Source of the DNA: Planctomycetales bacterium
GTDB taxonomy: Bacteria > 4484-113
DNA: 59,030 bases
Assembly: GCA_030606285.1 (NCBI GenBank)
Contig: JAUWGS010000012.1
Location: 1 to 59,030 of the forward strand
Direction: 5' to 3'
The notes below the pieces were generated by a model. That model was not told where the DNA came from. It made no database searches and was given only the letters and a program-made list of their open reading frames with translations. Shown in pieces: positions 28,234-43,802 of the stretch. Positions within the stretch are counted from its first letter, which is position 1. Every line of letters begins with the position of its first letter. The position numbers and the translations under genes were made by a program.

Positions 28234-29358
28234 CTAGCTGACCTGCCCCAGCCTGCTCTGTAGAAATTCGACGATAAGCTCTGCCGCATGGCCGTCACCA
28301 AACGGGTTCGGCGTATCCCTCGGCGGTATGCCACCGCTCCTCGTGCCCGCCAGGGCGTCCTCCATCTGATGCATTATGCGGTCGGCATCGGTGCCGATGA
28401 CGCGGGCGAATCCCGCTTCCACCGCTTCCGGACGCTCCGTACGCTCACGCAGCACCAGCACGAACTTCTCCAGGCCGCAGGCTTCCTCCTGGATGCCACC
28501 GGAGTCGGTGAGGATAAAGCGCGCGCCGTGCATCAAGTGCACAAACGCGGTGTAGGCGCAGGCGGGTGTCAGCAAGACGTTCGGCAGTTCGCCGACTAGC
28601 GGTTCCAAGCCTTCGCGCAGCACCGGGTTCGGGTGCAGGCAGATGATGATGCCGACGGCAGGGTTGGCGCGGGTGAAGCCCGCAATGCCGCCACCGATGC
28701 GCTGCAGGGGCTCGCCCCAGTTCTCGCGCCGGTGCGTGGTGACGACGACGTATTCGGGGAAGTTGGCGATGAAGTCTCTGGTGGCCTGAGGAAACTCCGG
28801 CTTCATCTCCAGGACCAGATTCACCGCGTCCACGACTGTGTTACCGGTGATGATTATCTCGCCGTCGGCCAGACCCTCGCGCCGCAGGTTCGCAGCCGCG
28901 CCGGGCGTGGGGCAGAAGTAGTAGTCGGTAAGCTCGTCTGCCAGGCGGCGGTTCATCTCCTCGGGAAAGGGCTGGAAGCGGTCGGATGTGCGCAGCCCCG
29001 CTTCCACGTGGCCGACGGGAATGCGGTTGTAGAATGCCGCCAGCGCGCCGGATAGGGTTGAAGTCGTGTCGCCGTGCACCAAAACGCAGTCGGGGCGCTC
29101 AGCGCGCAGTATCTCGCCAAGGCGTGCAAGCGTGCGCGTGAGGATCTCGTCAAGCTGCTGGCCCTCCTGCATTACGTCGAGGTCGTGCGCGGGCTTAAGC
29201 GCGAAAAGCTCCAGCACCTGGTCGAGCAGCTCCCGGTGCTGGCCGGTGACGATGAGAGTGTGGGTGAAGTCGGGCGAGGCGCCGAGCGCGCGGATGACGG
29301 GCGCCATCTTGATTGCTTCGGGGCGCGTCCCGAGTATTGTCGCAATCCTCACCCCCAC
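28234..29358 (-). CDS. wecB: UDP-N-acetylglucosamine 2-epimerase (non-hydrolysing)
   Basis: IATILGTRPEAIKMAPV, VLVHGDTTSTL, HVEAGLRT motifs. Confidence 0.85.
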   Translation of the reverse strand: MGVRIATILGTRPEAIKMAPVIRALGASPDFTHTLIVTGQHRELLDQVLELFALKPAHDLDVMQEGQQLDEILTRTLARLGEILRAERPDCVLVHGDTTSTLSGALAAFYNRIPVGHVEAGLRTSDRFQPFPEEMNRRLADELTDYYFCPTPGAAANLRREGLADGEIIITGNTVVDAVNLVLEMKPEFPQATRDFIANFPEYVVVTTHRRENWGEPLQRIGGGIAGFTRANPAVGIIICLHPNPVLREGLEPLVGELPNVLLTPACAYTAFVHLMHGARFILTDSGGIQEEACGLEKFVLVLRERTERPEAVEAGFARVIGTDADRIMHQMEDALAGTRSGGIPPRDTPNPFGDGHAAELIVEFLQSRLGQVS

Positions 29359-29411
29359 GGGGCTTATTGTAGCAGAGGGGGGAGGTTTGAGAAGCCCAGT
29401 AAAGGCAGTTT

Positions 29412-30407
29412 CTATGGAGCTAGTCCCTTAGCCTTAAGGTCTGGCAGTAGTCTCGTGTCGAATGTAGATAAACTGAAGAAGTTGTCCCCAATAACGGTTA
29501 GCAACCCTCTCAGCAGGCTATCCCAAGAAGGATGCCAGAATCCACGGCCATCCAGAAACACGTACAGATCGATCGTAGCTCTGGGATGACCGGAGTTATA
29601 CCTCGTAACGTCGCTAAAAGATGCTGTGATTTCTTCAAAATATCTCTTTTCGAATCCACCGCTCTTCCCCAGATAGAATGCACATTGAATCAGCACCTGC
29701 GGTGACGCAGCTTCAGGAAGGGCGAAATTCACTTTGCGAGCCGTGGGCAGCATAGTAATTCTTACGTCAGATGGATAGCCTCGTATGCTAGGGTTACTAA
29801 TCTTCCCTTCTGGCTCGAAGTTTGCCCCAGCCTCGTGTAGCTTTAAGGCGAGCGCATATTCGGCGAACTTGCCACGCTTGTTGGTTGCTTTTCCTCTCAC
29901 TAGAGGTTCAGCCAACGCTGTTAGGAAGGAGGGATTACGAGCTAAAGCGCGACAATGGTTACTGCTTGGCGGAATATATGTGAAGATACCGGCGCAAAAC
30001 CTCTCCAATAGCGCAACATTGCCATTGCTCCCATCAGCTATGAGTCTACTGGCCAAGCGGGAAATCCCACTCAATGACGGAGTGCGGGGTAGCCTTAGGT
30101 CGCCAGGGAGTTGAAACGAATGCTGCCCCAGAAACACTCCGAGTTGCACATCTATATCAGTCTTAGATAGACCATTAAGCACTACTAAGGCTTGGAGTGC
30201 AGAGCGAGTTGAAGGGGATAGCAAAACTCGGAAACGCCCGTTTCTCAGGTTGGCAACAAGTGGAGCCAACTCCCGAAGTCCTGTAGAGAGTTCACTGCGG
30301 AAGCTCTCCCTGAGTTGGGCGACAAACTCCTCCTCCACCGGGAGTCTAGGCGTTAAGCCATCTCTTAATTCAGCGATTCGAGCATCGATACGACTAGTAC
30401 GAGCCAT
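29412..30407 (-). CDS. Hypothetical protein, candidate restriction endonuclease partner of the adjacent methyltransferase
   Basis: 331 aa, no recognisable motifs; 9 nt downstream of the MTase gene in the same orientation; low-GC islet. Confidence 0.3.
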   Translation of the reverse strand: MARTSRIDARIAELRDGLTPRLPVEEEFVAQLRESFRSELSTGLRELAPLVANLRNGRFRVLLSPSTRSALQALVVLNGLSKTDIDVQLGVFLGQHSFQLPGDLRLPRTPSLSGISRLASRLIADGSNGNVALLERFCAGIFTYIPPSSNHCRALARNPSFLTALAEPLVRGKATNKRGKFAEYALALKLHEAGANFEPEGKISNPSIRGYPSDVRITMLPTARKVNFALPEAASPQVLIQCAFYLGKSGGFEKRYFEEITASFSDVTRYNSGHPRATIDLYVFLDGRGFWHPSWDSLLRGLLTVIGDNFFSLSTFDTRLLPDLKAKGLAP

Positions 30408-30415
30408 AAGGTTGT

Positions 30416-31819
30416 TTACCCCTTCTTAATCTTGTCTTCCAGCTTACGGATCAACTGCTGCACACCCAATTCAAGCACAGATGCTTTCCCCCCGTCAAGG
30501 AAAGACCGCCTAAGATTCCTGAATTCATCTCCAAGCCTCTTCTGCCTACGCAAACTGTAACAAGGCACCTTCAACTTCCGCAGTTGCGTCTTATTGATGC
30601 TGACAGTTCCAACACCATGTTTCATTGCTTCAATCTGGATTCTCCCAGCGCTAGTATGCATGAATAGATGAAGGAACGCAGCATCATATTGCTTTAGTCT
30701 AATGATGTGCAGGTAGTCGGTGGCAACTCCGATGTCTCTATCACTCAGAATAGGAGCTGTCTTACCAGCGCTGCCCACGCCCACCCGGCAAAAGACAAGG
30801 TCGCCAACGCGTGTCGTCGCACGCTCACTGTCCATCAGCGAACCCGGCTTGATGTACCGAGGATCTTTTAAGTAATCAACCCCTAGGACAGTGAGATTGG
30901 TTGCGTGAAGAAAGCGCTTTCCGCTCTTGCTGAAGCGTCTATCCGCACCGTACAGAGTACGCCCGCTAGTAATGTCACTGGTAATCTCTTCGAGATTCAT
31001 CCACTCGCATTTAAATTCACGGTCAAGAGACGTAGCAGGTTTGGCGGTGACCGGTAATCCTTCCACGAAATCTCCAGATGACAGAATAGTCGTTCTAGCG
31101 CGATTAGGGCTGTCGTATTCAACCAACCTGATCCTATCCCGAACATGTCCTGAAAAAGGGCGCTTACGAAGCACAACCGCCGCTGTTTTCGCTGTTGTGT
31201 AATCAAACGTGTCTCTAGGTAGTCTCAGCACAGTAAGGACTTGACATACATCTGTCATATGACTGCGCACGTACTTGTCACGAAGATTCGTGACCGCGCC
31301 CTCAGGCAGTACGATGCCAATGTACCCACCGGAAGAGCATAGCCTGATAAACCTCTCAAGGAATAGAACTTCGATTGGCTGAGAAGAACGGCCTACTCCT
31401 AAATGGTACTGGTTTAGCACTCTGGGGTCGTTGATACGGTCATACCAAGCGCTGAACGGCGGGTTCCCAACTACAAGGTCGTACTTGAAATCTGCAAGGA
31501 TTCGCCTTGCTTTAGAATCGTGCGACTCGATGTCAAGCGTATCAGCGCAAACGAAGTTGCTCCGCCCGAAACTAGAAGCACAGTGAGCAACCCATCTTTT
31601 GTCAATATCAGCCCCGAATAAGCTTACATGCGGCCACCTTTCACTTACAGCCTTTAGAAAAGTCCCGCTGCCAACAGCCGGGTCAACGGCTCTCTGGAAA
31701 ATGACACTCGGCACTTCATCGAGGATTGCGGAAACGACCCATGTAGGCGTAAAGTACTGATTATGTGGCTGCCTATGCGGCCGTTCTCTGGTGGTTAGCT
31801 TAGCATCCATCTGGACCAA
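30416..31819 (-). CDS. Gamma-class N6-adenine DNA methyltransferase with fused C-terminal target-recognition domain (TaqI-like)
   Basis: Motif order FxGxG (DPAVGSGTF) then NPPF (VVGNPPFSAW) is gamma class; C-terminal roughly 200 aa resembles an HsdS-type TRD; low GC. Confidence 0.7.
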   Translation of the reverse strand: MVQMDAKLTTRERPHRQPHNQYFTPTWVVSAILDEVPSVIFQRAVDPAVGSGTFLKAVSERWPHVSLFGADIDKRWVAHCASSFGRSNFVCADTLDIESHDSKARRILADFKYDLVVGNPPFSAWYDRINDPRVLNQYHLGVGRSSQPIEVLFLERFIRLCSSGGYIGIVLPEGAVTNLRDKYVRSHMTDVCQVLTVLRLPRDTFDYTTAKTAAVVLRKRPFSGHVRDRIRLVEYDSPNRARTTILSSGDFVEGLPVTAKPATSLDREFKCEWMNLEEITSDITSGRTLYGADRRFSKSGKRFLHATNLTVLGVDYLKDPRYIKPGSLMDSERATTRVGDLVFCRVGVGSAGKTAPILSDRDIGVATDYLHIIRLKQYDAAFLHLFMHTSAGRIQIEAMKHGVGTVSINKTQLRKLKVPCYSLRRQKRLGDEFRNLRRSFLDGGKASVLELGVQQLIRKLEDKIKKG

Positions 31820-31873
31820 TTATAGCGGATATTTAGCTAGGTACACAAGCGAGATGTACCTTACAATACATAT

Positions 31874-32269
31874 ATGGAGATTAACCGAGAAGACGTTATT
31901 GAGCTGCTATCTTCTTTTGCTGACGCGCTTGGGAATCTTGCGGAATTCGGGGAGGCTTATATCACGCACGCTTCCCATATTCTCGACAGCAAAGTAGGCT
32001 ATATCTGGCTTGAGACTTGGACGCCAGCCTGCGTTGAGTGTAATGAAGAGCTAACCCGTGAGATGATTGAGTTGGACGAGCTGGGAGAATACAGCGAAGC
32101 AACCACGCTACTGCTTGCTGAATACGAACATCTGGCATGGGAGGACGCGAAGAAGTTAGCACAAGCTATGGATGGTGAACTACTGACCGTTCACTGGGTG
32201 GAGAAGGAAGGCATCTCAGAGCAGCAGTCGGCCGCCCTAATACTGCTGGATAAGATCAAGGAGCGTTAG
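31874..32269 (+). CDS. Hypothetical acidic protein
   Basis: 131 aa, D/E-rich, no motif recognised. Confidence 0.35.
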   Translation: MEINREDVIELLSSFADALGNLAEFGEAYITHASHILDSKVGYIWLETWTPACVECNEELTREMIELDELGEYSEATTLLLAEYEHLAWEDAKKLAQAMDGELLTVHWVEKEGISEQQSAALILLDKIKER

Positions 32270-32319
32270 CCGGAATAGCCGGGCTGGTGAGCCCGGCGTA
32301 CTCCTGTTGGTCCGTCCCC

Positions 32320-33101
32320 CTACCCGCTCCAGCGGGCAATCATATCCGGGAGCCAATCGGTGAAGGCTTGGGCGACCGCCTTGTTGCCTGCCTCATTGGG
32401 ATGAGAGTCGCTTTCGCTTTTGCGGTATTCGGCGCGCAAAAAACCGTCGCCGTCCGCAAGCACGCCGAAGCAGTCAAACACCGCGATGTTGCGCTCGTTC
32501 GGCGCCCAGTCTTTTTGCAGCCAGTCGCAGAAGGCGCGCTTGCGCCTGGCGTTTTGCGCGGTGGTTTTGGCTGACACGAGCGGCGGCGCGGTCCACGCTA
32601 CGAACAGCACTTCGGGATGCTTCGCGAACATCGGCTTTAGCTTGTTGTAGTATCCCTTGTAGTCGGCGAGCATCTTGTCAGACGAGATGTTGCTTGCGGG
32701 ATAGCAGCTCTTGAACGCGACAATTTCGTGGCGGTCGGCGCCGGTAAGGTCCCACGCAAGCACTTCGTCCATATGCTCGCCGAACGTGACCGGGAAGTGG
32801 TCGGCATTGGTATTGTCGCCGATCCAGCCGTCGCCGTAGGTGATGTCGAACACCGAAAGCCCCAGCTCTTCGAGCTTGCGCCACATCCCGCCCTGCTTCA
32901 GGAAGCCGTTGCCGCAGGAATGGTGCAGATACACGATGCTCATCCCCTCGATGCTCTCCTCCGTCCATGCGGGAGCCGCCGTGCTGCGCAACTCCAGGCC
33001 TTGGGAGCCATCCTGCTGCTTTGCCTGACCGCGGCAGGTGGACGCGCAGCAGAACAGCACCGCCACGCATAGCATTGCGAACCAGAAGACGATACGCATA
33101 A
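32320..33101 (-). CDS. Secreted hypothetical hydrolase (weak SGNH-like features)
   Basis: Start revised to ATG 33101 (RBS ggaggaggg); signal peptide MRIVFWFAMLCVAVLFCCA; C-terminal DSHPN resembles SGNH block V. Confidence 0.45.
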
Positions 33102-33225
33102 TCCCTCCTCCCGTGTGTCGATGATTATAGCCAGTCTCGCGCCTGCTGCAAATTGCAGCCCTCCAGCAGTACCTGCTATACTCTAGTAAGTGCCAGGACG
33201 GACGCACTGCAGTAAGGAGACCTTT

Positions 33226-33432
33226 ATGCTCAAGAAACTGGGGAGACTAGTAGTGGGTGCCAGTTTGGCTTTCGCTACTTATGCTCTCACACCATTAGCT
33301 TCCGCTATCGTCTTTATTGCCGCAGTAGGCGCATTTAGCGCGCTGTCAGACTCCAAGCACACTGCCAAGGGCAAGCGTGCCCGCGCCAGTAAGAGCGACA
33401 ACACGAACTCCACTCCTAAGGATACAAGCTGA
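33226..33432 (+). CDS. Small membrane protein, hypothetical
   Basis: RBS taaggaga; 68 aa with one TM helix and a basic C-terminal tail. Confidence 0.4.
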   Translation: MLKKLGRLVVGASLAFATYALTPLASAIVFIAAVGAFSALSDSKHTAKGKRARASKSDNTNSTPKDTS

Positions 33433-33494
33433 GCATCGTCTTAGGCTACTGGACTTTACCCGACCGCAGCTGGTTTCTCTGCTAGAATCAGCGT

Positions 33495-34343
33495 ATGGAG
33501 AAGATCTGGGACGACCTTATCCGGATGGCGCTGAAGGAGGATGTCGGCGACGGCGATCTTACCAGCGAACTCCTCATCCCGCACGACCACCGCAGCCGGG
33601 CGGCGATGTGCGCGAAGGCGCCCGGCATCGTTTCAGGCCTGTCGCTGGCGATGCGGGTATTCGAGCTGCTGGACGAAAGCGTGGAGATTGTGTTGCACTG
33701 CGACGACGGGGACTACGTAAAGCCGGGAGACTGCGTGGCGGAGTTCACCGCGCATACGCGCAAGCTGCTGGCGGGCGAGCGGCTGGCGCTGAACTTCGTG
33801 ATGTGGCTTTCGGGCATCGCCACCGCAACGTACGAGCTGCAGGAGAAGCTGCGCCAGGCGGGTGTGAAGACCCGCGTGACCGACACGCGCAAGACGATTC
33901 CGCTATGGCGGTTCGCCCAGAAGAAGGCGGTGCGGCACGGCGGCGGCGTGAACCACCGGATGTCGCTGTCCGACGCGATACTGATAAAGGACAACCACCT
34001 GAGCTTCTATCCCGAAACCCCGGAAGCGGTACGGCGCGTAAAAGCGCAGAAGCGGATTGTGGACCTGATTGAGGTGGAGATTACCGAGCCCGCGCAGGTT
34101 GAGCCGATGATTGACGCGGGCGCCGACATCCTGCTGCTGGACAATATGACGCCGGAACAGGTGCGTGAATGCGTGAAGCTGGCAGGCGGGCGGGCGCGCA
34201 TCGAAGTCTCAGGCGGCGTCAGACCGGAAAACATAATGGACTACGCCATCGAGGGCGTGGACGTGATTTCGCTGGGCTACGTGACGCATTCCGCGCCGGC
34301 GCTGGATTTCTCGATGAAGATTACCGGCGAGGTGGCCGACTGA
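33495..34343 (+). CDS. nadC: Nicotinate-nucleotide pyrophosphorylase (carboxylating) / quinolinate phosphoribosyltransferase
   Basis: ALKEDVGDGDLTS, RKTIPLWR, ILLDNM motifs of NadC. Confidence 0.85.
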   Translation: MEKIWDDLIRMALKEDVGDGDLTSELLIPHDHRSRAAMCAKAPGIVSGLSLAMRVFELLDESVEIVLHCDDGDYVKPGDCVAEFTAHTRKLLAGERLALNFVMWLSGIATATYELQEKLRQAGVKTRVTDTRKTIPLWRFAQKKAVRHGGGVNHRMSLSDAILIKDNHLSFYPETPEAVRRVKAQKRIVDLIEVEITEPAQVEPMIDAGADILLLDNMTPEQVRECVKLAGGRARIEVSGGVRPENIMDYAIEGVDVISLGYVTHSAPALDFSMKITGEVAD

Positions 34344-35107
34344 TGCTGCTGGTCGTTGACATCGGCAACAGCAACATCGTCATCGGCGTGTGGCGTAACG
34401 GCGAGCTGGAGCATCGCTTCCGCATCACCACGCGGCATGACGCCACGAGCGACGAGTACGTGGGATTGCTGCGCAGCCTGTTCACCCCGGACTGGCTCAG
34501 CGGCCAGCACTTCATCGGCGCGGTTATGAGCAGCGTGGTGCCACCGCTGTTGCCACGAATGACTAAGGTCATCGAGCGCCTTACGGGCCACGAGCCGCTG
34601 GTGGTGGGCCCGGGCGTCAAGACCGGCCTGAACATACTTTACGAAAACCCGCGCGAAGTGGGCGCGGACCGCATCGTCAACAGCGTGGGCGCGCTGGCGC
34701 AGCACGAGCCGCCGCTGATCGTGGTGGATTTCGGCACGGCGACAACGTTTGACGTGCTGCAGCCGCCGGCGGACTACCTGGGCGGTGCTATCGCGCCGGG
34801 GATTGACATTTCGCGGGAGGCGCTTTCGGAGCGCGCGGCGAAGCTGCCGCTGGTGGAGCTTGCGCTGCCGGACGACCCGGTGGGGCGCACGACGGTGGAG
34901 AGCATCCGCAGCGGCGTGCTGTGGGGGCACGGCGCGATGGTGGACGGGCTTATTGCACATATCGAAGAGCGGCAGGGCTTCACCGCGAAAATCGTCGCTA
35001 CCGGCGGCTTCGGCGAGCTTATGCGCCGCGCATGCAAGCGCATCGAACTCGTCGACCCGAACCTCACGCTCCTCGGCCTGCGCATCATCTGGGAGAAGAA
35101 TCAGTAG
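34343..35107 (+). CDS. coaX: Type III pantothenate kinase
   Basis: MLLVVDIGNSNIVIGVW..., VVDFGTATTFD, GGFGELM; ATG overlaps nadC TGA (TGATG). Confidence 0.85.
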   Translation: MLLVVDIGNSNIVIGVWRNGELEHRFRITTRHDATSDEYVGLLRSLFTPDWLSGQHFIGAVMSSVVPPLLPRMTKVIERLTGHEPLVVGPGVKTGLNILYENPREVGADRIVNSVGALAQHEPPLIVVDFGTATTFDVLQPPADYLGGAIAPGIDISREALSERAAKLPLVELALPDDPVGRTTVESIRSGVLWGHGAMVDGLIAHIEERQGFTAKIVATGGFGELMRRACKRIELVDPNLTLLGLRIIWEKNQ

Positions 35108-35118
35108 GGGTTATCTGC

Positions 35119-36879
35119 CTAGTTCTCCTTACTACCTTCCTTAAGCCCTAGCTTCTTCCGCACATTCTCAACCAGCGGTGCGAATTCAGGATCGTCCTTG
35201 TAGGGTTCGAAGGCTGCGAAAACTGTATCTGGTTTGTCAACTTTAAAGCTCTCTCCCGATAGCACTTCTTGAACCTGAAGCTCGCTAATAGCTTTTTTCC
35301 GCTTCTTTTGCGCGGCCAGTGTAGCTGCTAGAATGATGTGGGGCCCCGCCTGCGAACGCAGTTTCTCATCGCCATCTAAAGCTCTCCGCAGCGATGCTTC
35401 AGCCTCTTCGAATCGCTTCGCACAGAAGAGCAGTTCCCCTTGACTTGCATAGGCTTCGTAGTAGTCGGGCTTGAGCTTCACCGCTTCCGCACACTTCTCT
35501 AGTGCTTCGTCATACTTGCCCAGCACTCCCAGCGCGATGCCCCAATTGTTGTAGGCTATAGCATACTCGGGCTTGTGCTTCACCGCTTCTGCGTACTTTT
35601 CGCACTCCTCTTTGTACTTGCCCAAGTTCCCCAGCGCTACACCCCAGTTGGAGTAGGCTTGGTGGTCGTCTGGCTTGTGCTTCACCGCTTCGGCATACTT
35701 CTCACATGCTTCCTCGTGCTTGCCAAGCATGGAAAGCGCAGTGCCCCAGTTGTAGTAGGCTTCAGCGTAATCGTGCTTGTGCTTCACTGCTTGTGCAAGC
35801 TTCTCACACGCTTCCTCATACCGGCCCAGCTTCCCTAGCGGCACGGCCCAGTTATTGTAAGCCACCGCATAATCGGGCTTGTGCTTCACCGCTTCTGCGT
35901 ATTTTTCGCACCCCTCTTTGTACTTGCCCAAGTTCCCCAGCGCTACACCCCAGTTGGAGTAGGCTTGGTGGTCGTCTGGCTTGTGCTTCACCGCTTCGGC
36001 ATACTTCTCACATGCTTCCTCGTCGCGGCCTAGCATGGAAAGCGCAGTGCCCCAGCAGAACCATAACCGCTCATCCTCGCTGTTATCAGCTTGGATGCTC
36101 TCCGCAATACTCACTGTGATGGCATGAGCATCCCTATAATGAGCAGTCAGCAAGTCGCGTATTGAGTACTTCCGCGGCTTCGAAAGCTCAGCAGCATATG
36201 CAGGTGCGGTGCTCTCAATCCGCTTTCGCAGGTTTTCTTTCAAGTCCTTAATTTGGGGAAGAACGTCACTCGCCAGAACTCTCCTTAGTAACTCCTCACT
36301 GGCCTTATCGAGAGCTCGCTTCTGCTTTTTCCGCACTCCTGGCGCCAAAGCGGTATACTCGCGGAGGTCGTCAAGCTCCTTCTTAGTCTCTGCGAGCTCC
36401 TTTTCCGTTCGAGTAAGCTGCAAAACAGGGCTCGGTGAATATGGTTTTATAAGAACATCCAGCACAGCATCAGTGCCTTCATCACTGGCCCTGAGAGCTT
36501 CAAGCAAGAGGCGCCATTCTTCGGCTTGCGACAAGTCGTAGTAGTGGTATGCTTTGAATCTCTCAGAAGGCATGTCCGGCCCAAGCTTAACAACTAACGG
36601 TGCTCTATTCTCGTGGCAGGACTGGAAGTCTTCCAACTCCTGAAGGCATCTTGGCCTGTCATCCCAGCTTTTGCTGTATAGGAGTAGGAACTCACGGCAG
36701 CAGTCAACTGCCCCTGAAGTCTCCCTCTCGATATGACCGCTGACCAGGTGAATCGGATCGAACCAGGGAGAGATCCCGGCGAATCTAAGGACGACGTAAA
36801 GCGCCTTCGCTGCCGCACCATGCGTATCTTTGTGATAGCTGATAAAGCAATCGTATTCGCGTTCTTTCTTCTCGTCCAT
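35119..36879 (-). CDS. TIR-domain protein with coiled-coil and multi-TPR array (candidate NADase-type defence effector)
   Basis: Start ATG 36879 (RBS gggagg); N-terminus EYDCFISYHKD...ALYVVLRFAGISPWFD is a TIR fold; at least 9 TPR units (AEAVKHKPDxxxAYxNWGxALGxLGKYxE); DNA-level near-identical 190-bp tandem repeats with 306-bp period. Confidence 0.75.
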   Translation of the reverse strand: MDEKKEREYDCFISYHKDTHGAAAKALYVVLRFAGISPWFDPIHLVSGHIERETSGAVDCCREFLLLYSKSWDDRPRCLQELEDFQSCHENRAPLVVKLGPDMPSERFKAYHYYDLSQAEEWRLLLEALRASDEGTDAVLDVLIKPYSPSPVLQLTRTEKELAETKKELDDLREYTALAPGVRKKQKRALDKASEELLRRVLASDVLPQIKDLKENLRKRIESTAPAYAAELSKPRKYSIRDLLTAHYRDAHAITVSIAESIQADNSEDERLWFCWGTALSMLGRDEEACEKYAEAVKHKPDDHQAYSNWGVALGNLGKYKEGCEKYAEAVKHKPDYAVAYNNWAVPLGKLGRYEEACEKLAQAVKHKHDYAEAYYNWGTALSMLGKHEEACEKYAEAVKHKPDDHQAYSNWGVALGNLGKYKEECEKYAEAVKHKPEYAIAYNNWGIALGVLGKYDEALEKCAEAVKLKPDYYEAYASQGELLFCAKRFEEAEASLRRALDGDEKLRSQAGPHIILAATLAAQKKRKKAISELQVQEVLSGESFKVDKPDTVFAAFEPYKDDPEFAPLVENVRKKLGLKEGSKEN

Positions 36880-36970
36880 GGAGCTGACCTCCCACTGCAA
36901 TTATAGCCCAATAGGTGACAGTTAGGCTTTTGCAGTCTACAAGCCCTTCAATATCCGGTCGAAGTCTAAA

Positions 36971-37000
36971 CGGCGGGGCGCAGAGACCCCGCCCTACAGG
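36971..37000. repeat. Hairpin-CTACAR unit overlapping the 3' end of the HicB-like gene
   Basis: cggcggggcgcagagaccccgcc+ctacagg; the CTA of ctacag is the TAG stop (minus strand) of the CDS. Confidence 0.45.
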
Positions 37001-37218
37001 GGAACCGGTACGCAGGGCATGTCTTTTTTCTGTTCCCGATACGCTTCAATCATCTCGTCCAGGGCGTCTTCGAGCATCTCCCGACACTCTTCGAGGGTTT
37101 TTCCTTCGGTCACAACTTCCGGCCATTCCAGCAGCTGCCCCATGTAGCCCTCGGAGAGCTCAACGTACTTCGCGGTGAAAAGGTGGACGTTACGCCTAGC
37201 TGTTGTTCGCTTCACCAT
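36994..37218 (-). CDS. HicB-family antitoxin-like protein (UPF0150), no adjacent HicA
   Basis: YVELSEGYMGQLLEWPEVVTEGKTLEECREMLEDALDEMIEAY matches the HicB/UPF0150 consensus; start taken at MVKR. Confidence 0.5.
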   Translation of the reverse strand: MVKRTTARRNVHLFTAKYVELSEGYMGQLLEWPEVVTEGKTLEECREMLEDALDEMIEAYREQKKDMPCVPVPL

Positions 37219-37309
37219 AACCAGGAGTAAGTATACCCTCGCGCCAACCCGTATGTCTATTCGGAGTGCAGGAAGCTTGCGGCTACGCACGCCCGGATAC
37301 GATTACAGC

Positions 37310-37942
37310 TCACAGCTTTTTGTATATCCTATCGAAGTCGGCGGTGCCGACGAGGACCATCTGGACGACGCGGTCGCGGATGAGGACGAATATCAGGTTC
37401 GAGTTGCCGCGCCGGTAGGCTACGCGGCGCTTCATCCCCACCTGCTGCCGCGAAAGAGGCTCCTGCTCGTAGGCGTCGCGGAGCTCATCGTAGGTGGAGC
37501 CGAGCGTTATGCCCTCTGCGGTCTTCACACCGGGATACCTGGCGCGGAAGCCGACGACGAGTTCGGCGTATTCGGGCTCCTCATACACGCGCTTGAACTT
37601 CTCGACTCCGGGAGCGCCTCCGGGCGAGAATGCTGAACGCTCGTAGGTTAAGCTGCAAATACGGATGACGTCAACGCGCCCGTCGAAGTCGAAGTCCTGC
37701 AACGCAACTGTGATGTCCGCCTCGTCGTCTCTGCAGCAAAAGGCGCCGCGCACGACGGACGTGTGCACGCTTGCGTCAGCGAACTTAATCACCTCGCGCA
37801 TCGCATCACGCGCGGTTTCGAGCCGGTCGCTGATGTGCGCGCCCAGGCCAAAGCTCTCGTCGGCGAATCCCGACGGTGCGCATGACGCAAGCAGGAGCGC
37901 AAGCGCGTGTGCAAGCAGTTTGTGAGCCTGAAACGGCTTCAC
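37310..37942 (-). CDS. Lipoprotein, hypothetical
   Basis: 210 aa; lipobox LLLASCAPSG. Confidence 0.5.
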   Translation of the reverse strand: MKPFQAHKLLAHALALLLASCAPSGFADESFGLGAHISDRLETARDAMREVIKFADASVHTSVVRGAFCCRDDEADITVALQDFDFDGRVDVIRICSLTYERSAFSPGGAPGVEKFKRVYEEPEYAELVVGFRARYPGVKTAEGITLGSTYDELRDAYEQEPLSRQQVGMKRRVAYRRGNSNLIFVLIRDRVVQMVLVGTADFDRIYKKL

Positions 37943-37971
37943 TTTATCTATCCGTTCTCAGATAGCGGCTG

Positions 37972-39444
37972 TTAGGTCTCCTCGCCTTCAGGACCGGGTG
38001 CGCCCTCGTCAGGCGATGGCGGTGGCTCAGGAGCGATGCGTAGTTGCGGCGGCTCAGGATTGCCACCTTCGCTGGCCTCCTTTGCCTTCACCAGGAAGTC
38101 GGGCAGCGACAGTCCGGCGATATCGAACAGGTTTTGCAGCGGCGGCAACGACTTCATCAGATTGGCGAAGAAGTTCGCCGTGGTGGACGGGCCGCCTTCC
38201 TTGCTGTTGCCGCTCATCGAGTCCCAGACCACGACCTTGTCGATAGCCAGGCCCTTGACCGCCTCGACCTGCGTGCTGACCAGCTCCGGCAGTTTCTCGG
38301 TAATCATCAGGAGTGCGGCGAGCCGCGCGTCTTTTCCGGCGGCGCTGACCAGCTCACGCAGACCTTCCGCACGCTTCACCAGGATCTCCCGGTTGCCGCG
38401 CGCCTGGGCGTCCAGCTTGGCGAAGATGGCGTCGGCCTGTCCGCGCGCCACCCGGCGCAGCTTCTCGGCTTCCGCCTCGGCGGCGATTTCGATACGCTGC
38501 TTCTCGATCTCCTGGGGAACGACGATGTCCGCCTTCTGAGTTGCTCGCGTACGCTCGGCACGCTGCAACTCGGCAATACGCTCGGCGACGTAGGCTTCCT
38601 CCAGCGCTTTGGCGGCCTGCACTTTCTCGGCAGCCGTGCCGCGCTTGTTCGCCTCGGCCTCCTTCTCCCGCCGGTCGGCGTTGGAGTTGGCAATCTGGAT
38701 GCGCGCCTGGTTCTCACCGTCAACGGCGTCGGCGTCCGCAGCTGCCACCCTGATGCGCTGTTCGCGCTCAGCCTCCGCCTTGCCCACCTCACCGTCGCGG
38801 AGGCGCTCGGCGACCTTCTTCTTGGCCTCGTTTATGGCCTGCGCCGCGGCTTCCTTGCCCAGCGCCTCGATGTAGAGGGACTTGTCAGTGATGTCCTTGA
38901 CGTTGACGTTGATGAGCTTCAGGCCGATCTTCTTCAGCTCGATCTCGACGCCGCCGGTGACGTTGTCCAGGAACTTGTCGCGGTCGGCGTTAATCTGCTC
39001 GATGTACATCGTCGCAATGACGACACGCAGCTGACCGAAGATGATGTCCTCGGTAATGCGCTTGATGGCTTCGTTGGACAGGCCAAGCAGACGCTCTGCT
39101 GCATTCTCCATTACGCCTATCTCGGTGGAAATACCGACCGTAAACGTGGACGGTACATCAACGCGGATGTTCTGCCGGGATAGCGCCTCGCGCAGCGGGA
39201 TGTCAATCGTTATCGGCGTCAGGTCCAGGAATTGGTAGTCCTGGATCACCGGCCAGACGAATGCCGCGCCACCGTGCAGGCACCGCGCAGAACGGCGGCC
39301 TTCCGGGCCCTGCCCTATGCGGCCGTAGATGACCATCACCTTGTCGGACGGGCACCGCTTGTAGCGCGACAGCAGCCAGGTCAGGATGAAGAATAGAAGC
39401 AGTACAAATGCTGCTATTAGACCTATGAGACCTTGTAGTGGCAT
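37972..39444 (-). CDS. Flotillin / SPFH (band 7) family protein
   Basis: 490 aa; N-terminal TM, SPFH domain, long E/A/K-rich coiled-coil, Pro/Glu-rich tail; YqiK-type. Confidence 0.85.
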   Translation of the reverse strand: MPLQGLIGLIAAFVLLLFFILTWLLSRYKRCPSDKVMVIYGRIGQGPEGRRSARCLHGGAAFVWPVIQDYQFLDLTPITIDIPLREALSRQNIRVDVPSTFTVGISTEIGVMENAAERLLGLSNEAIKRITEDIIFGQLRVVIATMYIEQINADRDKFLDNVTGGVEIELKKIGLKLINVNVKDITDKSLYIEALGKEAAAQAINEAKKKVAERLRDGEVGKAEAEREQRIRVAAADADAVDGENQARIQIANSNADRREKEAEANKRGTAAEKVQAAKALEEAYVAERIAELQRAERTRATQKADIVVPQEIEKQRIEIAAEAEAEKLRRVARGQADAIFAKLDAQARGNREILVKRAEGLRELVSAAGKDARLAALLMITEKLPELVSTQVEAVKGLAIDKVVVWDSMSGNSKEGGPSTTANFFANLMKSLPPLQNLFDIAGLSLPDFLVKAKEASEGGNPEPPQLRIAPEPPPSPDEGAPGPEGEET

Positions 39445-39445
39445 G

Positions 39446-40096
39446 TTATCCCTCGCTCCTTGTTCTCTTTACTATAAAAGTCGTGGCGTCCAGCATCTTG
39501 GTGATAACGACTTTGGTTCGGGGCGGCAGGCGCTCCGGCTCGTCGCTGACCGCCGAGACCTCGCGCATACGCCCCTGCACAACCACCTGCACCTGACCCG
39601 CAGCTTCACGCTTTGGCGGTATGGTGATATATACCGTCGCCACTTTCCCGATGGCGTTAGCGTAGCTGATGTTGCCGTAATCGCGCAGCTTGAAAATCTG
39701 CGCCATCAGCCAGAACACCATTAGCATGAAGGCGAACCCGATGGCGGTTCCTCCGATGAGGGCGATATAGGGATTCTCCAGCCACTCGTAGAAGGTGACA
39801 CCGCCCCAGCCGAAACCGACGAAGAACGCTATCAGGGTGCGCCAGGAGAGGAAGTGCAGTCCGGCATCGTGCGCCATGAAGTGGTCACTCTCAATCGAGC
39901 CCATGTCGAAGTCATGGTCGGCCACAGCGAAGTCGTGGTCGCCCACGCCGCTGACGTCGGCGTCCATATCCGTGTCCGCGTGCCCCAGCCCGATCATAGT
40001 GAGGATGAGCTGAAACACGAGCACGAAGGAGGCGCTGAAGGCAACGATGTAGAAGAACCTCAGAATCCCGGGCAGTGACGCCCACCACTCGTTCAA
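39446..40096 (-). CDS. NfeD/YqiJ-family membrane protein (flotillin partner)
   Basis: 216 aa; 4 TM helices plus C-terminal OB-fold-like segment; immediately upstream of flotillin in the same orientation. Confidence 0.7.
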   Translation of the reverse strand: MNEWWASLPGILRFFYIVAFSASFVLVFQLILTMIGLGHADTDMDADVSGVGDHDFAVADHDFDMGSIESDHFMAHDAGLHFLSWRTLIAFFVGFGWGGVTFYEWLENPYIALIGGTAIGFAFMLMVFWLMAQIFKLRDYGNISYANAIGKVATVYITIPPKREAAGQVQVVVQGRMREVSAVSDEPERLPPRTKVVITKMLDATTFIVKRTRSEG

Positions 40097-40422
40097 ATCA
40101 CGTACCCCCTTCCTCCCGGGCCTAACGAGCAGGACCCGTCTGCACTACCAGTTTACAGCATAGACGATGCCCCTGTCAAGCGCGAAGCCGCATTATTACT
40201 GGGCTCAGCGCGACCGGCGCGGGGCGGCACGGACGCACATGCCGGCTCTCAGCTGCCGGTTCACCGCAATTTCACGCCCGACGGGCCGCCATACTAGGCA
40301 AGACGGCCTGCATCGCGTAGAATAGTGGCACGCAGCGGGAGGAAGGAAGTGCGACACGAGGCGAATGTGGGCCGTGCGGCTGGCCCCAGCGGGTGCCATT
40401 ACGCCTTTAAGGGGAAGCCGAG

Positions 40423-41142
40423 ATGAGGGCGCAAGTCGTCACCTGGAACGTGCACAGCTGGCTGGACAGCAGCTTCCGGCTGCGGTTCTCCGAAATGCTC
40501 CATATTCTCAGCGGACTTCGCCCGGACGTGCTGTGCTTGCAGGAGGCACGGTGGGATCCTTCCCGGGGCGTTTATTCACCGGAAATCGCCCGGCTTCGCA
40601 GCGACCTGGAGCTTGACGGATATGCGATGTGCACGACGCATCTCAGCCCGCTCCGGCGACAGGCGGTGGGACACCTAATCCTCACGCGCCCCAGTCTCTG
40701 TAACATCCAGCATTTCGACATCGGGAGGGCGTTCCACATCCGGCGCCGACTGCTCCTGGCGGACGTCAAACTCGGCAGCGTGGAGATGACCATTGCCACG
40801 GCGCATCTCAGTCCGCTCCCCTGGCCGGCCACGCCGGGGTGGCACTGGGAATGGCTGCCGCGCCCGAGGGAAACGCGCCGGATGCTGAAGGCTCTGGCAG
40901 AGGTGGAGAAGCCGCTCGCGCTGGCGGTTGACCTCAACGCCACGCCGCAGACGGAGGATTTCGCGCGCGTGAGCGAAATGCTCGCGCCCTGCAGCACCAC
41001 CCAGATGAGCCACGTATCGGGCATGTGCCTGGATTACGTGTTCACGAGCCGCGACCTGCCAGCCTCCCACCGCCCGCTGAACCTCACCTCCAGCCCCTCG
41101 GACCACTACCCCATCGCCGCCACGCTCAAACTGCCGGGCTAG
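40423..41142 (+). CDS. Endonuclease/exonuclease/phosphatase (EEP) family protein
   Basis: VVTWNVH...DVLCLQEA N-terminal EEP signature; C-terminal SDHYP. Confidence 0.75.
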   Translation: MRAQVVTWNVHSWLDSSFRLRFSEMLHILSGLRPDVLCLQEARWDPSRGVYSPEIARLRSDLELDGYAMCTTHLSPLRRQAVGHLILTRPSLCNIQHFDIGRAFHIRRRLLLADVKLGSVEMTIATAHLSPLPWPATPGWHWEWLPRPRETRRMLKALAEVEKPLALAVDLNATPQTEDFARVSEMLAPCSTTQMSHVSGMCLDYVFTSRDLPASHRPLNLTSSPSDHYPIAATLKLPG

Positions 41143-41326
41143 CGGGCGGCGCACCTAAGGTCTCAGCCGATCTCGCCACCGAGGCGCTGAACCTCGCCGC
41201 CTTCTGGTGGCTCTTCCGCCGGGGGAACTGGAAGCGGGTCCGGGTGTGAGATGGGGGGCTTGACAGCCTATACGCCGGTATAGTATAGTTCTAACCGCCT
41301 CGGAGTCTTGCTCCCAGGAGAAACCT

Positions 41327-41740
41327 ATGCCGAATCGCAATACTCATATAGCAGGCGGGCTAATAACTGGAGCGGTGGTATCTTTCTATCTCGCCCGTAA
41401 TGAGGCACCTGACGATATGATGCTCGAAGTGCTTGGTGGTACTGCCATCGCTATATTGGCCTCGTCTCTTCCAGACCGCATTGACCCCCCAACAGGGCCG
41501 TATCATCGAAGTATTGGGCACAGTGCCTTGCTCTCCTCTGTAACGGCTCTAGCCATGGCAACTACTCTTTCTGATTGGCAACGCGCGTGCAGGGAAAGGT
41601 CGGTCGCCGCAAAGGAAGCTGGAGACAAGGTCAGCTGGTTCATCTGGCGTGTACTTGCAGGGATGCCTTGGGGATTTGTAGCAGGCTACTCCTCCCATCT
41701 CATCTTTGATGCTTTTACGGCAAGAGGCTTGCCATCCTAG
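41327..41740 (+). CDS. Membrane-bound metal-dependent hydrolase (DUF457/YdjM-like)
   Basis: 137 aa; MPNRNTHIAGGL..., HRSIGHS..., SHLIFDAFT histidine motifs; low GC. Confidence 0.55.
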   Translation: MPNRNTHIAGGLITGAVVSFYLARNEAPDDMMLEVLGGTAIAILASSLPDRIDPPTGPYHRSIGHSALLSSVTALAMATTLSDWQRACRERSVAAKEAGDKVSWFIWRVLAGMPWGFVAGYSSHLIFDAFTARGLPS

Positions 41741-41790
41741 ATGAAAATCATCTTGGCTGAGTTTCACGTGCGTAGGCTATAATTGAGACG

Positions 41791-42987
41791 ATGGCTGTTC
41801 GCACTGTTGAGCATGTGACCGTTGTCAGCTCCTACAAGAAGCCTCCTGTCAAGGACTTCGCAACAATAACCCCTAAAACACCTCTTGAAGAGCTTAACCT
41901 CAACTGGCGCGAACGAGATTTGCCAGAGAAGGTGAGAACGAAGCATGTGCATCGCCTTCATCCCTATCTGGGGAAGTACATTCCCCAACTCGTTGAAGTG
42001 TTCCTCCGAAAGTACAGGCCCACTCTTGTCTACGACCCCTTCTGCGGGTCGGGAACGACGTTAGTTGAGGCCAACACGCTAGGAATCGACTCTATAGGAT
42101 GCGATGTGTCGCAGTTCAATGTGCTCCTTTCACGGGTCAAGACAGCCAAGTATGATTTGGGCAAATTAAAGAGCGAGATACAGGACATCCTTTTCGAGAC
42201 TTCCAAGCTGCGAAAAGGGACGCTTTTCGGGATTGACACGTTCGACAGACTGGGTCCGGAGAGTGAGTATTTGAAGGAGTGGTATGCGGATCGGTCACGA
42301 AAGGAGCTCTTGTATTACAGGGAACTCATTGCCAACTATCACTATAAGGACTTGATGCGAGTTATACTCTCAAGAGCTGCACGGTCAGCAAGGCTTACCA
42401 CGCACTACGACCTTGACTTTCCTAAGAAACCGCAGACAGAACCTTACTACTGCTACAAACATGGCAGAACATGTAAGCCCGTTGAGGAAGCCTATAAGTT
42501 CCTAGCACGGTATACAGAGGATACATACCGGCGGGTGGCGGAATTTGCAGCAATCCGCACGAAAGCAGATGTAGATGTGCGTTGGACAGACTCCCGTGGA
42601 GTTGACCTACCTAAGGGTATCGACTGCGTGATTACCTCACCGCCATACTTTGGACTCATCGACTATCATGAGCAGCACAAATATGCATACGAGTTGCTTA
42701 ACCTGTCACGCTCGGATGAGGAAGAGATCGGAGCAGCTTCTAACGGACAATCTCAGAAAGCTCGTCAGCAGTATATCGAGGGAATAAACGAAGTGCTAGC
42801 GCACACTCGAAAGCATTTGAAAAGAAATGCCGTTCTGGTGATCGTCATCAATGACAAGTTCGAACTCTACGACCCGAAGCCTCTAGGATATAAATGGGAG
42901 GCCAGAATGCAGCGGCACGTGAATCGACGCACCGGCAGGCGTTCGGGTGCATTCTACGAAGACATCTTCATCTGGAGGAAGCCGTGA
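41791..42987 (+). CDS. DNA methyltransferase (N4-cytosine/N6-adenine family, SPPY motif)
   Basis: Motif I DPFCGSGTTLVEA, motif IV VITSPPYFGLIDY; low-GC islet. Confidence 0.75.
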   Translation: MAVRTVEHVTVVSSYKKPPVKDFATITPKTPLEELNLNWRERDLPEKVRTKHVHRLHPYLGKYIPQLVEVFLRKYRPTLVYDPFCGSGTTLVEANTLGIDSIGCDVSQFNVLLSRVKTAKYDLGKLKSEIQDILFETSKLRKGTLFGIDTFDRLGPESEYLKEWYADRSRKELLYYRELIANYHYKDLMRVILSRAARSARLTTHYDLDFPKKPQTEPYYCYKHGRTCKPVEEAYKFLARYTEDTYRRVAEFAAIRTKADVDVRWTDSRGVDLPKGIDCVITSPPYFGLIDYHEQHKYAYELLNLSRSDEEEIGAASNGQSQKARQQYIEGINEVLAHTRKHLKRNAVLVIVINDKFELYDPKPLGYKWEARMQRHVNRRTGRRSGAFYEDIFIWRKP

Positions 42988-43799: not shown

Positions 43800-43802
43800 G
43801 CG

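What the first reader, a model, noticed from the sequence alone, without database searches (positions are those of the whole stretch)
35119..36879. TIR-TPR protein built from near-identical tandem DNA repeats
The N-terminal TIR fold (EYDCFISYHKD...LRFAGISPWFD) is followed by a coiled-coil and at least 9 TPR units. At DNA level two 190-bp segments (35560-35750 and 35870-36050) are about 97 percent identical with a 306-bp period (three TPRs), implying recent expansion and recombinational plasticity. Bacterial TIR proteins act as NAD+-consuming antiphage effectors (Thoeris ThsB, TIR-STING and others), and a TPR array is a plausible sensor. This looks like a single-gene defence candidate lying between coaX and a HicB-like gene.
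Basis: partly seen in the sequence, partly recalled or inferred. Interest (0 to 1): 0.7.

Follow-up and report, generated by a model that had tools for sequence, protein, structure and literature searches.

The report
Strain-specific TIR–TPR candidate phage-defence gene
This is an intact gene for a protein that joins a TIR (NAD-cleaving type) domain to a tetratricopeptide-repeat array. It was acquired by one strain on a 2.2-kb insertion and is most likely a single-protein anti-phage system of a kind already shown to work in E. coli, so it is a well-supported but not surprising find.

Summary
Window 35119-36879 (minus strand) encodes a 586-aa protein with four parts:
- an N-terminal TIR domain (Pfam TIR_2 above threshold; predicted fold matches SARM1, SPARTA and plant TIRs; the catalytic-position Glu, E81, is invariant);
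- a ~140-aa helical linker;
- six canonical plus one degenerate TPR units;
- a helical tail.

Two ~186-nt tracts 306 nt apart are 96% identical, with 111 nt exact. The rest of the 306-nt unit is only ~70% identical. That fits gene conversion or concerted evolution better than a fresh triplet duplication.

The gene is accessory. Relatives at 84-91% nucleotide identity have the coaX stop abutting the next gene. Here a 2.2-kb, low-GC3 segment (TIR-TPR plus an orphan HicB-like gene) is inserted at that spot. Three other strain-specific islands nearby carry restriction-modification or AbiE-like genes.

The sequence family is tiny. In 1.84 billion representative proteins there is one other full-length member (9 TPR units) and one short form (1 TPR unit).

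The best reading is a single-protein abortive-infection system: the TPR array senses and the TIR depletes NAD+. Function is inferred, not shown. A TIR+TPR single-protein system (E. coli TIR-II) is already validated, so this is a new member of a known kind. Interest is moderate to low.

The parts
35119..36879 (-). TIR-TPR coding sequence, 586 aa plus stop (stop codon 35119-35121)
   Evidence: ORF list and translation. Identical protein P0001 is a singleton cluster from an NCBI contig of 59030 bp.
36888..36893 (-). Shine-Dalgarno-like GGGAGG, 8 nt upstream of the ATG at 36879
   Evidence: Sequence read directly.
36490..36858 (-). TIR domain, aa 8-130 (strands 9-14, 61-68, 95-98, 113-115; BB-loop region 42-53 at low confidence)
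   Evidence: Pfam TIR_2 37.4 bits. AF2 model of aa 1-135 has pLDDT 89 and pTM 0.84. Foldseek hits to SARM1, SPARTA TIR-APAZ, RUN1 and MyD88 TIRs with TM up to 0.80.
36637..36639 (-). Codon of E81, the catalytic-position glutamate (motif CLQEL)
   Evidence: Invariant in an alignment of 26 TIR domains. The profile column aligns with the Glu of 'WCLDEL' in RUN1, Roq1 and RPV1. Conserved in P0002 and P0121.
36073..36489 (-). Helical linker, aa 131-269; no known domain
   Evidence: No Pfam, NCBIfam or PADLOC hit. AF2 predicts long helices at pLDDT 47-65. Conserved only in P0002 and partly deleted in P0121.
35359..36072 (-). TPR array, aa 270-507: six canonical 34-aa units plus one degenerate unit
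   Evidence: Unit table. Pfam TPR families. AF2 pLDDT 94-97 with helix pairs. Best PDB matches are 8-repeat consensus TPR and the OGT TPR domain.
35122..35358 (-). C-terminal helical region, aa 508-586, with motifs PHIILAA and YKDDPEFAPL..NVRKKL shared with P0002
   Evidence: BLASTP alignment to P0002. AF2 helices 511-576.
35869..36054 (-). Near-identical tract, copy 1 (codons 276-337: second part of TPR unit 1 and all of unit 2)
   Evidence: 178/186 nt identical to copy 2. Codon-by-codon list. Exact run 35913-36023.
35563..35748 (-). Near-identical tract, copy 2 (codons 378-439: second part of TPR unit 4 and all of unit 5), 306 nt from copy 1
   Evidence: Exact run 35607-35717. Independent k=31 contigs end 30 nt inside each copy.
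36994..37218 (-). HicB-like (UPF0150) small gene, 74 aa from ATG 37218; co-inserted upstream of TIR-TPR, with no HicA partner next to it
   Evidence: Pfam UPF0150. 70-80% identical to a widespread 72-aa HicB family, which elsewhere is followed at 2 nt by a 62-aa HicA. No HicA here.
36972..36993 (-). GC-rich hairpin (GGCGGGG-N8-CCCCGCC) just after the hicB-like stop, in the 114-nt spacer before TIR-TPR
   Evidence: Sequence read directly. Not called by the terminator scan because there is no T-run.
35109..37321 (.). Strain-specific 2.2-kb insertion (TIR-TPR + HicB-like) between the coaX stop and the stop of the 210-aa gene
   Evidence: BLASTN blocks and alignments against relatives L082, L083 and L085-L088, where 14-36 nt separate the two blocks. 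GC3 is 0.60 and 0.68 against 0.78-0.86 in flanking genes.

Best explanation
The gene encodes a cytoplasmic single-chain sensor-effector protein. It was acquired horizontally and most likely acts as an abortive-infection anti-phage system.

Proposed mechanism:
1. In the resting state the N-terminal TIR domain is kept inactive by the helical linker and the TPR superhelix.
2. The TPR array binds a phage-derived protein or peptide.
3. Binding drives self-association, so TIR domains form the assemblies that TIR NADases need for a composite active site.
4. E81 then catalyses NAD+ cleavage, and NAD+ depletion arrests the infected cell.

No partner effector gene is conserved beside it, so the TIR domain is taken to be the effector itself rather than a signal generator.

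The near-identical tracts in the TPR array reflect ongoing gene conversion or unequal recombination among repeat units. Such recombination can reshape the binding surface.

Shown here: the domain architecture, the TIR fold, the conserved Glu, the insertion and absence from relatives, and the repeat structure.
Inferred: NADase activity, the trigger, oligomerisation and the defence phenotype.
For: Architecture: TIR_2 above the gathering score and six TPR_2 stretches. The TIR model has pLDDT 89 and matches solved NADase TIRs (SARM1, SPARTA, RUN1). The TPR part matches consensus TPR superhelices.

Catalytic residue: E81 is invariant in 26 TIR domains and aligns to the plant TIR catalytic-position Glu. 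It is conserved in all three family members.

Accessory, acquired gene:
- The protein cluster has 1 member, while the flanking coaX, nadC and flotillin clusters have 9-13.
- Six longer loci from two relative lineages, plus one short contig, have coaX directly followed by the 210-aa gene.
- GC3 is 0.60 against 0.78-0.86 for neighbours.

Defence neighbourhood: three further strain-specific islands within about 14 kb carry a type II MTase, an MTase + TdeIII-type REase, and an AbiEii-like pair.

Precedent: the single-protein TIR+TPR system TIR-II protects E. coli and needs the TIR active-site residues (PMC11350192).

Same design with other effectors: the most similar TPR arrays in the 5.8-billion-cluster search sit in proteins carrying SIR2_2 (PF13289), CHAT (PF12770) or STAND ATPase domains.

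No effector partner: nothing but a 74-aa HicB-like gene shares the insertion.
Against: - No experiment supports the function.
- PADLOC gives only weak, domain-level hits (best 1.2e-7 to a SAVED-TIR model) and no system-level match.
- The aromatic residue four positions before the Glu (W in the plant TIRs of the alignment, and by my reading of the SARM1 sequence; its importance in AbTir is from memory) is R77 here and Ala in both homologues. Catalysis or product could therefore differ.
- The TIR score is modest, and P0002 falls below the Pfam threshold (24.6 bits).
- The only full-length homologue has two unknown genes immediately downstream that are absent here. A partner-dependent mechanism in the ancestral system is therefore not excluded.
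- No match in the phage or plasmid collections ties it to known mobile defence cargo.
Confidence: 0.6

Rival explanations
1. Thoeris-like signalling: the TIR domain makes a cADPR-type or other NAD-derived signal that activates an effector encoded elsewhere. The TPR array acts as the sensor.
For: Many bacterial TIRs are signal generators, and new Thoeris types keep appearing (bioRxiv 10.64898/2025.12.03.692087). The homologue P0002 is followed at 34 nt by two overlapping unknown genes that could be effectors.
Against: The 2.2-kb insertion holds no candidate effector. There is no SIR2, SLOG, Macro or TM protein, and the HicB-like gene has no PADLOC hit. The P0002 downstream proteins have no counterpart in the window. 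There is no ThsB_TIR or Thoeris hit for the protein.
Confidence: 0.1
2. Toxin-antitoxin-like pair: the orphan HicB-like protein encoded 114 nt upstream restrains the TIR-TPR protein, which has taken the place of the missing HicA toxin.
For: This HicB family is normally followed at 2 nt by HicA. Here HicA is absent and TIR-TPR is the next gene on the same strand, inside the same insertion. The C-terminus of this HicB differs from the family consensus.
Against: Neither other family locus has a HicB-like neighbour. A 114-nt spacer with a GC hairpin separates the genes. The HicB-like gene has its own promoter-like site. It may simply be a decayed hicBA remnant.
Confidence: 0.07
3. Not a defence gene: a TIR-TPR scaffold or regulator of host physiology, for example NAD homeostasis or protein-protein signalling, or a host-directed Tcp-like effector.
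For: TIR and TPR are both generic interaction modules. Two of three family loci lie next to de novo NAD synthesis genes: nadC-coaX here and nadA for P0121.
Against: The gene is absent from close relatives that keep nadC-coaX intact, so it is not needed for NAD metabolism. It is convergent with coaX, not co-transcribed. I saw no signal peptide or secretion motif in the N-terminus. The catalytic-position Glu is conserved.
Confidence: 0.13
4. The repeat structure, or its copy number, is an assembly artefact of a metagenome-assembled contig.
For: The contig comes from a metagenome bin. A 111-nt exact repeat breaks k=31 assemblies. The segment between the copies (35637-35993) is supported only by the NCBI assembly.
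Against: Both outer junctions are reproduced at 100% identity in independent contigs that stop exactly k-1 nt into each copy, as expected for a true two-context repeat. The reading frame is intact, and the protein aligns end to end with P0002. The 8 differences inside the 186-nt tract argue against a chimeric duplication of one copy.
Confidence: 0.07

Closest known systems
E. coli TIR-II single-protein TIR+TPR anti-phage system (PMC11350192, Nat Commun 2024)
   Same: TIR and TPR sit in one polypeptide. It is a single-gene system and an accessory gene. In TIR-II, defence depends on the TIR active-site residues.
   Different: Sequence relationship could not be tested because the accessions are in supplementary data that are not held. 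About 30% of TIR-II systems also carry an ATPase domain, which is absent here. This family has a ~140-aa helical linker and almost no relatives.
Avs / bacterial NLR-like STAND proteins with TIR effector and TPR sensor
   Same: The logic is an N-terminal effector plus a C-terminal TPR sensor. Many of the most similar TPR arrays are in proteins with STAND/AAA domains.
   Different: There is no NTPase module between TIR and TPR. No P-loop or NACHT/NB-ARC hit appears in Pfam, NCBIfam or PADLOC, and the linker is purely helical.
DSR2 (SIR2 + helical-repeat sensor) and the SIR2-TPR proteins found among the TPR hits
   Same: A single chain with an N-terminal NADase-type domain and a C-terminal alpha-solenoid that, in DSR2, binds a phage structural protein to switch on NAD+ depletion (PMC11850899 abstract). 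SIR2_2+TPR proteins share 35-45% identity with this TPR array.
   Different: The effector fold is TIR, not SIR2. The DSR2 repeats are not TPR.
SARM1 (ARM-SAM-TIR)
   Same: It gives the best sequence and Foldseek matches for the TIR domain. A helical-repeat domain regulates a TIR NADase.
   Different: The domain order is reversed. There are no SAM domains. The repeats are TPR, not ARM. Identity is about 22%.
BcTir/BcTpr two-gene system (bioRxiv 10.1101/2023.05.26.542521) and TPR-bearing Thoeris effector ThsI (bioRxiv 10.64898/2025.12.03.692087)
   Same: A TIR domain and a TPR domain cooperate in anti-phage defence. The preprint reports that TPR helix number modulates NAD-derived product formation.
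   Different: Those are two-gene systems in which the TPR protein carries a different N-terminal hydrolase domain and the TIR is a separate protein. Here TIR and TPR are fused and no partner is present.

Membership tests
TIR domain (Pfam PF13676 TIR_2) | Profile match above the curated gathering score | tested here: met
   37.4 bits vs a 28-bit cutoff, aa 12-121.
TIR domain (Pfam PF13676 TIR_2) | Flavodoxin-like alpha/beta TIR fold | tested here: met
   AF2 model has pLDDT 89.3. Foldseek probability is 1.00 to SARM1, SPARTA, RUN1, MyD88 and Hydra TRR-2 TIRs, with TM 0.6-0.8.
Enzymatic TIR NADases (SARM1 / plant TIR / AbTir type) | Catalytic glutamate at the start of helix alphaC | tested here: met
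   E81 is invariant in 26 aligned TIRs. The profile column aligns with the Glu of WCLDEL/WCLEEL in RUN1, RPV1 and Roq1. That this Glu is catalytic (RUN1 E100, SARM1 E642) is supported by the PDB entry names 'E100A mutant' and 'E642A' and by established knowledge.
Enzymatic TIR NADases (SARM1 / plant TIR / AbTir type) | Aromatic residue four positions before the Glu (WxxxE) | tested here: not met
   The residue is R77 here and Ala in P0002 and P0121. This is typical of the family but not strictly defining, and several bacterial TIRs in the alignment also lack W.
Enzymatic TIR NADases (SARM1 / plant TIR / AbTir type) | NAD+ cleavage activity | not testable with these tools
   Needs a biochemical assay.
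TPR repeat proteins | Tandem 34-aa helix-turn-helix units matching TPR profiles and forming a superhelix | tested here: met
   TPR_2 E=8e-31 with 6 stretches. Unit table. Model aligns over 272 columns to an 8-repeat consensus TPR, with TMt 0.76-0.85.
E. coli TIR-II defence system | TIR and TPR in a single protein acting alone | tested here: met
   The architecture is shown. No conserved partner gene is present.
E. coli TIR-II defence system | Sequence homology to the validated TIR-II protein | not testable with these tools
   The accessions are only in Supplementary Data 2, which is not held. The E. coli collection cannot be searched with a protein.
E. coli TIR-II defence system | Anti-phage activity dependent on the TIR active site | not testable with these tools
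   Needs an experiment.
Thoeris (ThsB TIR + ThsA-type effector) | Adjacent effector gene activated by a TIR-made signal | tested here: not met
   The only co-inserted gene is a 74-aa HicB-like protein with no PADLOC hit. The protein has no ThsB_TIR hit.
Avs / STAND NLR-like | Central P-loop NTPase (NACHT / NB-ARC / AAA) module | tested here: not met
   No NTPase family in the Pfam, NCBIfam or PADLOC scans. Residues 131-269 are predicted helices only.
HicAB toxin-antitoxin (for the upstream gene) | HicA toxin gene adjacent to HicB | tested here: not met
   Family members have a 62-aa HicA 2 nt downstream. None is present at 36880-36993. The only HicA-like sequence in the window is at 48049-48228.

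The most novel reading that the evidence does not exclude
This very rare TIR clade may be a metabolite-gated NADase wired to NAD homeostasis, in the manner of SARM1, rather than a sensor of a phage protein. The linker and TPR module would sense an NAD-pathway metabolite. That would explain why two of the three known loci lie beside de novo NAD synthesis genes (nadC here, nadA for P0121/P0189). A related unexcluded twist is that the orphan HicB-like protein has been recruited as its antitoxin in place of HicA.
Probability: 0.05. Interest if true: 0.7.

Novelty: new member of a known kind. Interest (0 to 1): 0.35.

Why it matters
If the function holds, this adds a very divergent and extremely rare sequence family to the single-protein TIR+repeat-sensor defence systems. 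Only three members were found among about 15 billion predicted proteins.

It comes with a clean natural 'empty site' comparison showing acquisition as a 2.2-kb cassette. Its sensor array is visibly being homogenised by recombination.

It would be a compact candidate for studying how a TPR array gates a TIR NADase without a STAND ATPase. It would not change current concepts, because the TIR+TPR single-gene defence design is already experimentally established.

Tried and rejected
1. The search for homologous proteins with the N-terminal 265 aa returned nothing, not even the protein itself. I treat this as a limit of the word index, not as evidence. The index-free HMMER search replaced it.

2. 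The genome-contig scan with coaX found no close genome; the best hit was 52% identity, to Paenibacillus. The organism could therefore not be named. Close relatives were reached instead through the 90%-identity clusters of the flanking proteins.

3. I looked for the protein in its own record, and it was not on record. The flanks were recovered through coaX and the HicB-like protein.

4. I looked for target-site duplications or inverted repeats at the insertion ends and saw none convincing. No integrase or transposase is in the insert.

5. A simple recent 306-bp tandem duplication is rejected. Identity is 100% over 111 nt but about 70% over the remaining third of the unit.

6. Unit-by-unit orthology with P0002 was tested to separate conversion from expansion and was inconclusive. 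P0001 units resemble each other (59-97% nt) more than any P0002 unit, whereas P0002 units are 45-60% alike. This shows concerted evolution but not its exact route.

7. tblastn against the phage and plasmid collections gave only a TPR-level hit in one archaeal virus and nothing for TIR+linker.

8. The Rfam scan found nothing near the gene.

9. The promoter and terminator scans found nothing above shuffle expectation for the gene. A TATAAT at 36900-36905 lies only about 20 nt from the ATG and has no -35 box, so I do not claim it.

10. I tried to find an empty site for the P0121 locus. All six recovered contigs carry the gene, so this was uninformative.
Full report
**What is there**

The minus strand of window 35119-36900 is one open frame. 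The likely start is the ATG at 36879, preceded by GGGAGG at an 8-nt spacing. This gives a 586-aa protein identical to a singleton protein cluster from an NCBI contig of the same length as the window (P0001).

- Pfam gives TIR_2 for residues 12-121 (E=4e-9, 37.4 bits against a gathering score of 28) and a set of TPR families with six TPR_2 stretches.
- NCBIfam gives only sub-threshold TPR-protein resemblances.
- PADLOC gives only weak domain-level hits, the best being 1.2e-7 to a SAVED-TIR model.

**Structure**

An AlphaFold2 model of the full protein has mean pLDDT 79. It shows:
- a small alpha/beta domain (strands 9-14, 61-68, 95-98, 113-115);
- long low-confidence helices from 133 to 262;
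- fourteen regularly spaced helices from 270 to 503 at pLDDT 94-97;
- four further helices up to residue 576.

A separate model of residues 1-135, built on an alignment of 26 TIR domains, reaches pLDDT 89 and pTM 0.84. Its best PDB matches are all TIR domains: SARM1, SPARTA TIR-APAZ (TM up to 0.80), RUN1, MyD88 and Hydra TRR-2. The repeat part matches 8-repeat consensus TPR proteins and the OGT TPR superhelix.

By sequence there are six canonical 34-residue units (aa 270-473) and a seventh degenerate one (474-507).

**Catalytic glutamate**

In the 26-sequence TIR alignment only L31 and E81 are invariant. A profile of that alignment aligns its 'yclkEl' column with the Glu of WCLDEL/WCLEEL in RUN1, RPV1 and Roq1. 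This is the position mutated in the PDB entries named RUN1 E100A and SARM1 E642A. E81 is conserved in both homologues.

One difference is worth recording. The aromatic residue four positions upstream (W in the plant TIRs of the alignment) is R77 here and Ala in both homologues.

**The DNA repeat**

All other offsets give 21-34%. The longest exact run is 111 nt (35913-36023 = 35607-35717), against a maximum of 35 nt for any other direct repeat in the window.

The similarity is patchy. Codons 276-337 versus 378-439 differ at 8 of 186 nt. The remaining third of the period (unit 3 versus unit 6) is 72% identical, no more than unrelated unit pairs at 59-77%. A fresh 306-nt tandem duplication would be uniformly similar. 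A gene-conversion tract of about 186 nt fits better.

More generally, units 1-6 of this protein are 59-97% identical to one another at the DNA level, whereas the nine units of the homologue P0002 are 45-60% identical. So the array here has undergone concerted evolution. Whether by conversion or by rounds of unequal crossing-over cannot be settled.

The repeat is not an artefact of one assembly. Two contigs of an independent k=31 assembly of run SRR14876847 are 100% identical to window 28343-35636 and 35994-43143, and each ends exactly 30 nt inside one copy of the exact repeat. The copy number itself rests on the NCBI assembly.

**How rare it is**

An index-free HMMER search of 1.84 billion representative proteins used a profile of the TIR+linker region. 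It found:
- one full-length relative, P0002 (666 aa, 37% identity end to end, nine TPR units);
- one short relative, P0121/P0189 (267/297 aa: TIR, shortened linker, one TPR unit; E=1.7e-17);
- otherwise only generic TIR hits at E>1e-8, many of them plant TIR-NLR domains.

The linker has no other relatives and no family assignment.

The TPR array has hundreds of strong matches. Many of the best-matching proteins carry SIR2_2, CHAT or STAND-type ATPase domains, which is the same 'effector plus TPR' design.

**It is an acquired, strain-specific gene**

The 90%-identity clusters of the flanking proteins (coaX, nadC, flotillin) have 9-13 members on many contigs, while the TIR-TPR cluster has one.

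Contigs from two related lineages (84-91% nucleotide identity) are collinear with the window on both sides. In them the coaX stop is followed within a few bases by the stop of the convergent 210-aa gene. Window 35109-37321 is extra. It contains only the TIR-TPR gene and a 74-aa HicB-like gene.

GC3 is 0.60 and 0.68 for these two genes, against 0.78-0.86 for their neighbours. No integrase, transposase or clear terminal repeats were found.

The same comparison shows three more strain-specific, low-GC islands within about 14 kb:
- 22312-24266: a winged-helix protein plus an AbiEii/DUF6036-like nucleotidyltransferase;
- 29385-32288: a type II N6-methyltransferase plus an unknown 331-aa protein, where the relatives carry an R.Pab1-type endonuclease instead;
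- 41143-44217: a methyltransferase plus a TdeIII-type endonuclease.

The gene thus sits in a stretch where strain-specific cargo is dominated by defence genes.

**The HicB-like neighbour**

It belongs to a very widespread 72-aa HicB family with 70-80% identity across phyla. In other genomes that family is followed at 2 nt by an uncalled 62-aa HicA. Here the C-terminus differs and no HicA follows. After a GC-rich hairpin and a 114-nt spacer comes TIR-TPR.

Neither other family locus has a HicB-like neighbour. I therefore regard it as a decayed hicBA remnant or independent cargo. An antitoxin role towards TIR-TPR is not excluded.

**Most likely mechanism**

A single-chain sensor-effector, as follows:
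1. The TPR superhelix binds a phage protein or peptide.
2. This releases autoinhibition and promotes self-association through the helical linker.
3. The assembled TIR domains cleave NAD+ using E81.
4. NAD+ depletion aborts the infection.

The steps from binding onward are inference by analogy with DSR2, SARM1, TIR-STING, SPARTA and TIR-bearing Avs proteins. I take the TIR domain to be the effector rather than a signal generator because no candidate effector shares the insertion. My confidence is about 0.6 for defence by NAD+ depletion, and higher for defence in general.

Rivals are Thoeris-like signalling to an unlinked effector (0.1), a TA-like pairing with the HicB-like protein (0.07), a non-defence role (0.13), and an assembly artefact affecting only the repeat copy number (0.07).

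**Comparison with what is known**

A survey of E. coli TIR proteins validated a single-protein system, TIR-II, that contains TIR and TPR domains. It needs the TIR active-site residues and is reported as the most widespread of the new TIR systems, sometimes with an added ATPase (PMC11350192). The present protein has the same architecture. Its sequence relationship to TIR-II could not be tested because the accessions are not held.

It is not an Avs/STAND protein (no NTPase module). It is not Thoeris (no effector gene). It is not the BcTir/BcTpr or ThsI type, which are two-gene systems with a different hydrolase on the TPR protein.

I therefore file it as a new member of a known kind: a very divergent, very rare sequence family with the established TIR+TPR single-gene design.

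**Verdict**

The domains, the glutamate and the accessory status are right. 'Recent expansion' is better read as gene conversion or concerted evolution. The defence function is plausible but untested.
- Interest is 0.35.

Noticed in passing
window 33495-35107; L089 5582-7926; L090 902-3336: Two of the three known loci of this TIR family lie beside de novo NAD synthesis genes: nadC-coaX here, and nadA about 500 nt from P0121/P0189. In L089 the TIR gene also has atypically low GC3 (0.63 vs 0.74-0.89). This may be coincidence or a functional link with an NAD-consuming enzyme; it is unexplained.
   Followed up: partly
window 36994-37218 (-): Orphan HicB-like gene. Its family is normally followed at 2 nt by a 62-aa HicA that gene callers miss (for example L091 2721-2909). 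Here HicA is absent and the C-terminus differs. The database holds this gene only as a 49-aa product.
   Followed up: partly
window about 47717 and about 48231; tRNA-Pro 47672-47748; HicA-like 48049-48228 (+): A 35-nt exact direct repeat duplicates the 3' part of tRNA-Pro about 514 nt downstream, bracketing a HicA-like ORF. This looks like the att sites of a small integrated or decayed element.
   Followed up: no
window 29385-32288: Strain-specific low-GC island with a type II N6-adenine methyltransferase (30416-31819), an unknown 331-aa protein (29412-30407, probably the endonuclease) and a 131-aa ORF. Relatives carry a different pair at the same site (R.Pab1-type endonuclease plus a 392-aa protein).
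   Followed up: partly
window 41143-44217: Strain-specific low-GC island with a methyltransferase (41791-42987) and a TdeIII-type restriction endonuclease (42894-43799). Relatives have different content at this site.
   Followed up: partly
window 22312-24266: Strain-specific segment with a 407-aa winged-helix (MarR/Csa3-like) protein and a 232-aa AbiEii/DUF6036-like nucleotidyltransferase, resembling an AbiE-type toxin-antitoxin or abortive-infection pair. The hits are weak and below Pfam thresholds.
   Followed up: no
window 8079-8252 (+): Cobalamin riboswitch (Rfam RF00174, 89 bits).
   Followed up: no
L001 2270-3189: In the only full-length homologue's contig, two overlapping unknown genes (171 aa and 136+ aa) start 34 nt after the TIR-TPR stop. 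They have no counterpart in the window and could be partners in that system.
   Followed up: partly
L085 19007-19658: A relative's locus carries a HepT/MNT (nucleotidyltransferase) toxin-antitoxin pair that is absent from the window. This is another example of variable defence or TA cargo in this lineage.
   Followed up: no
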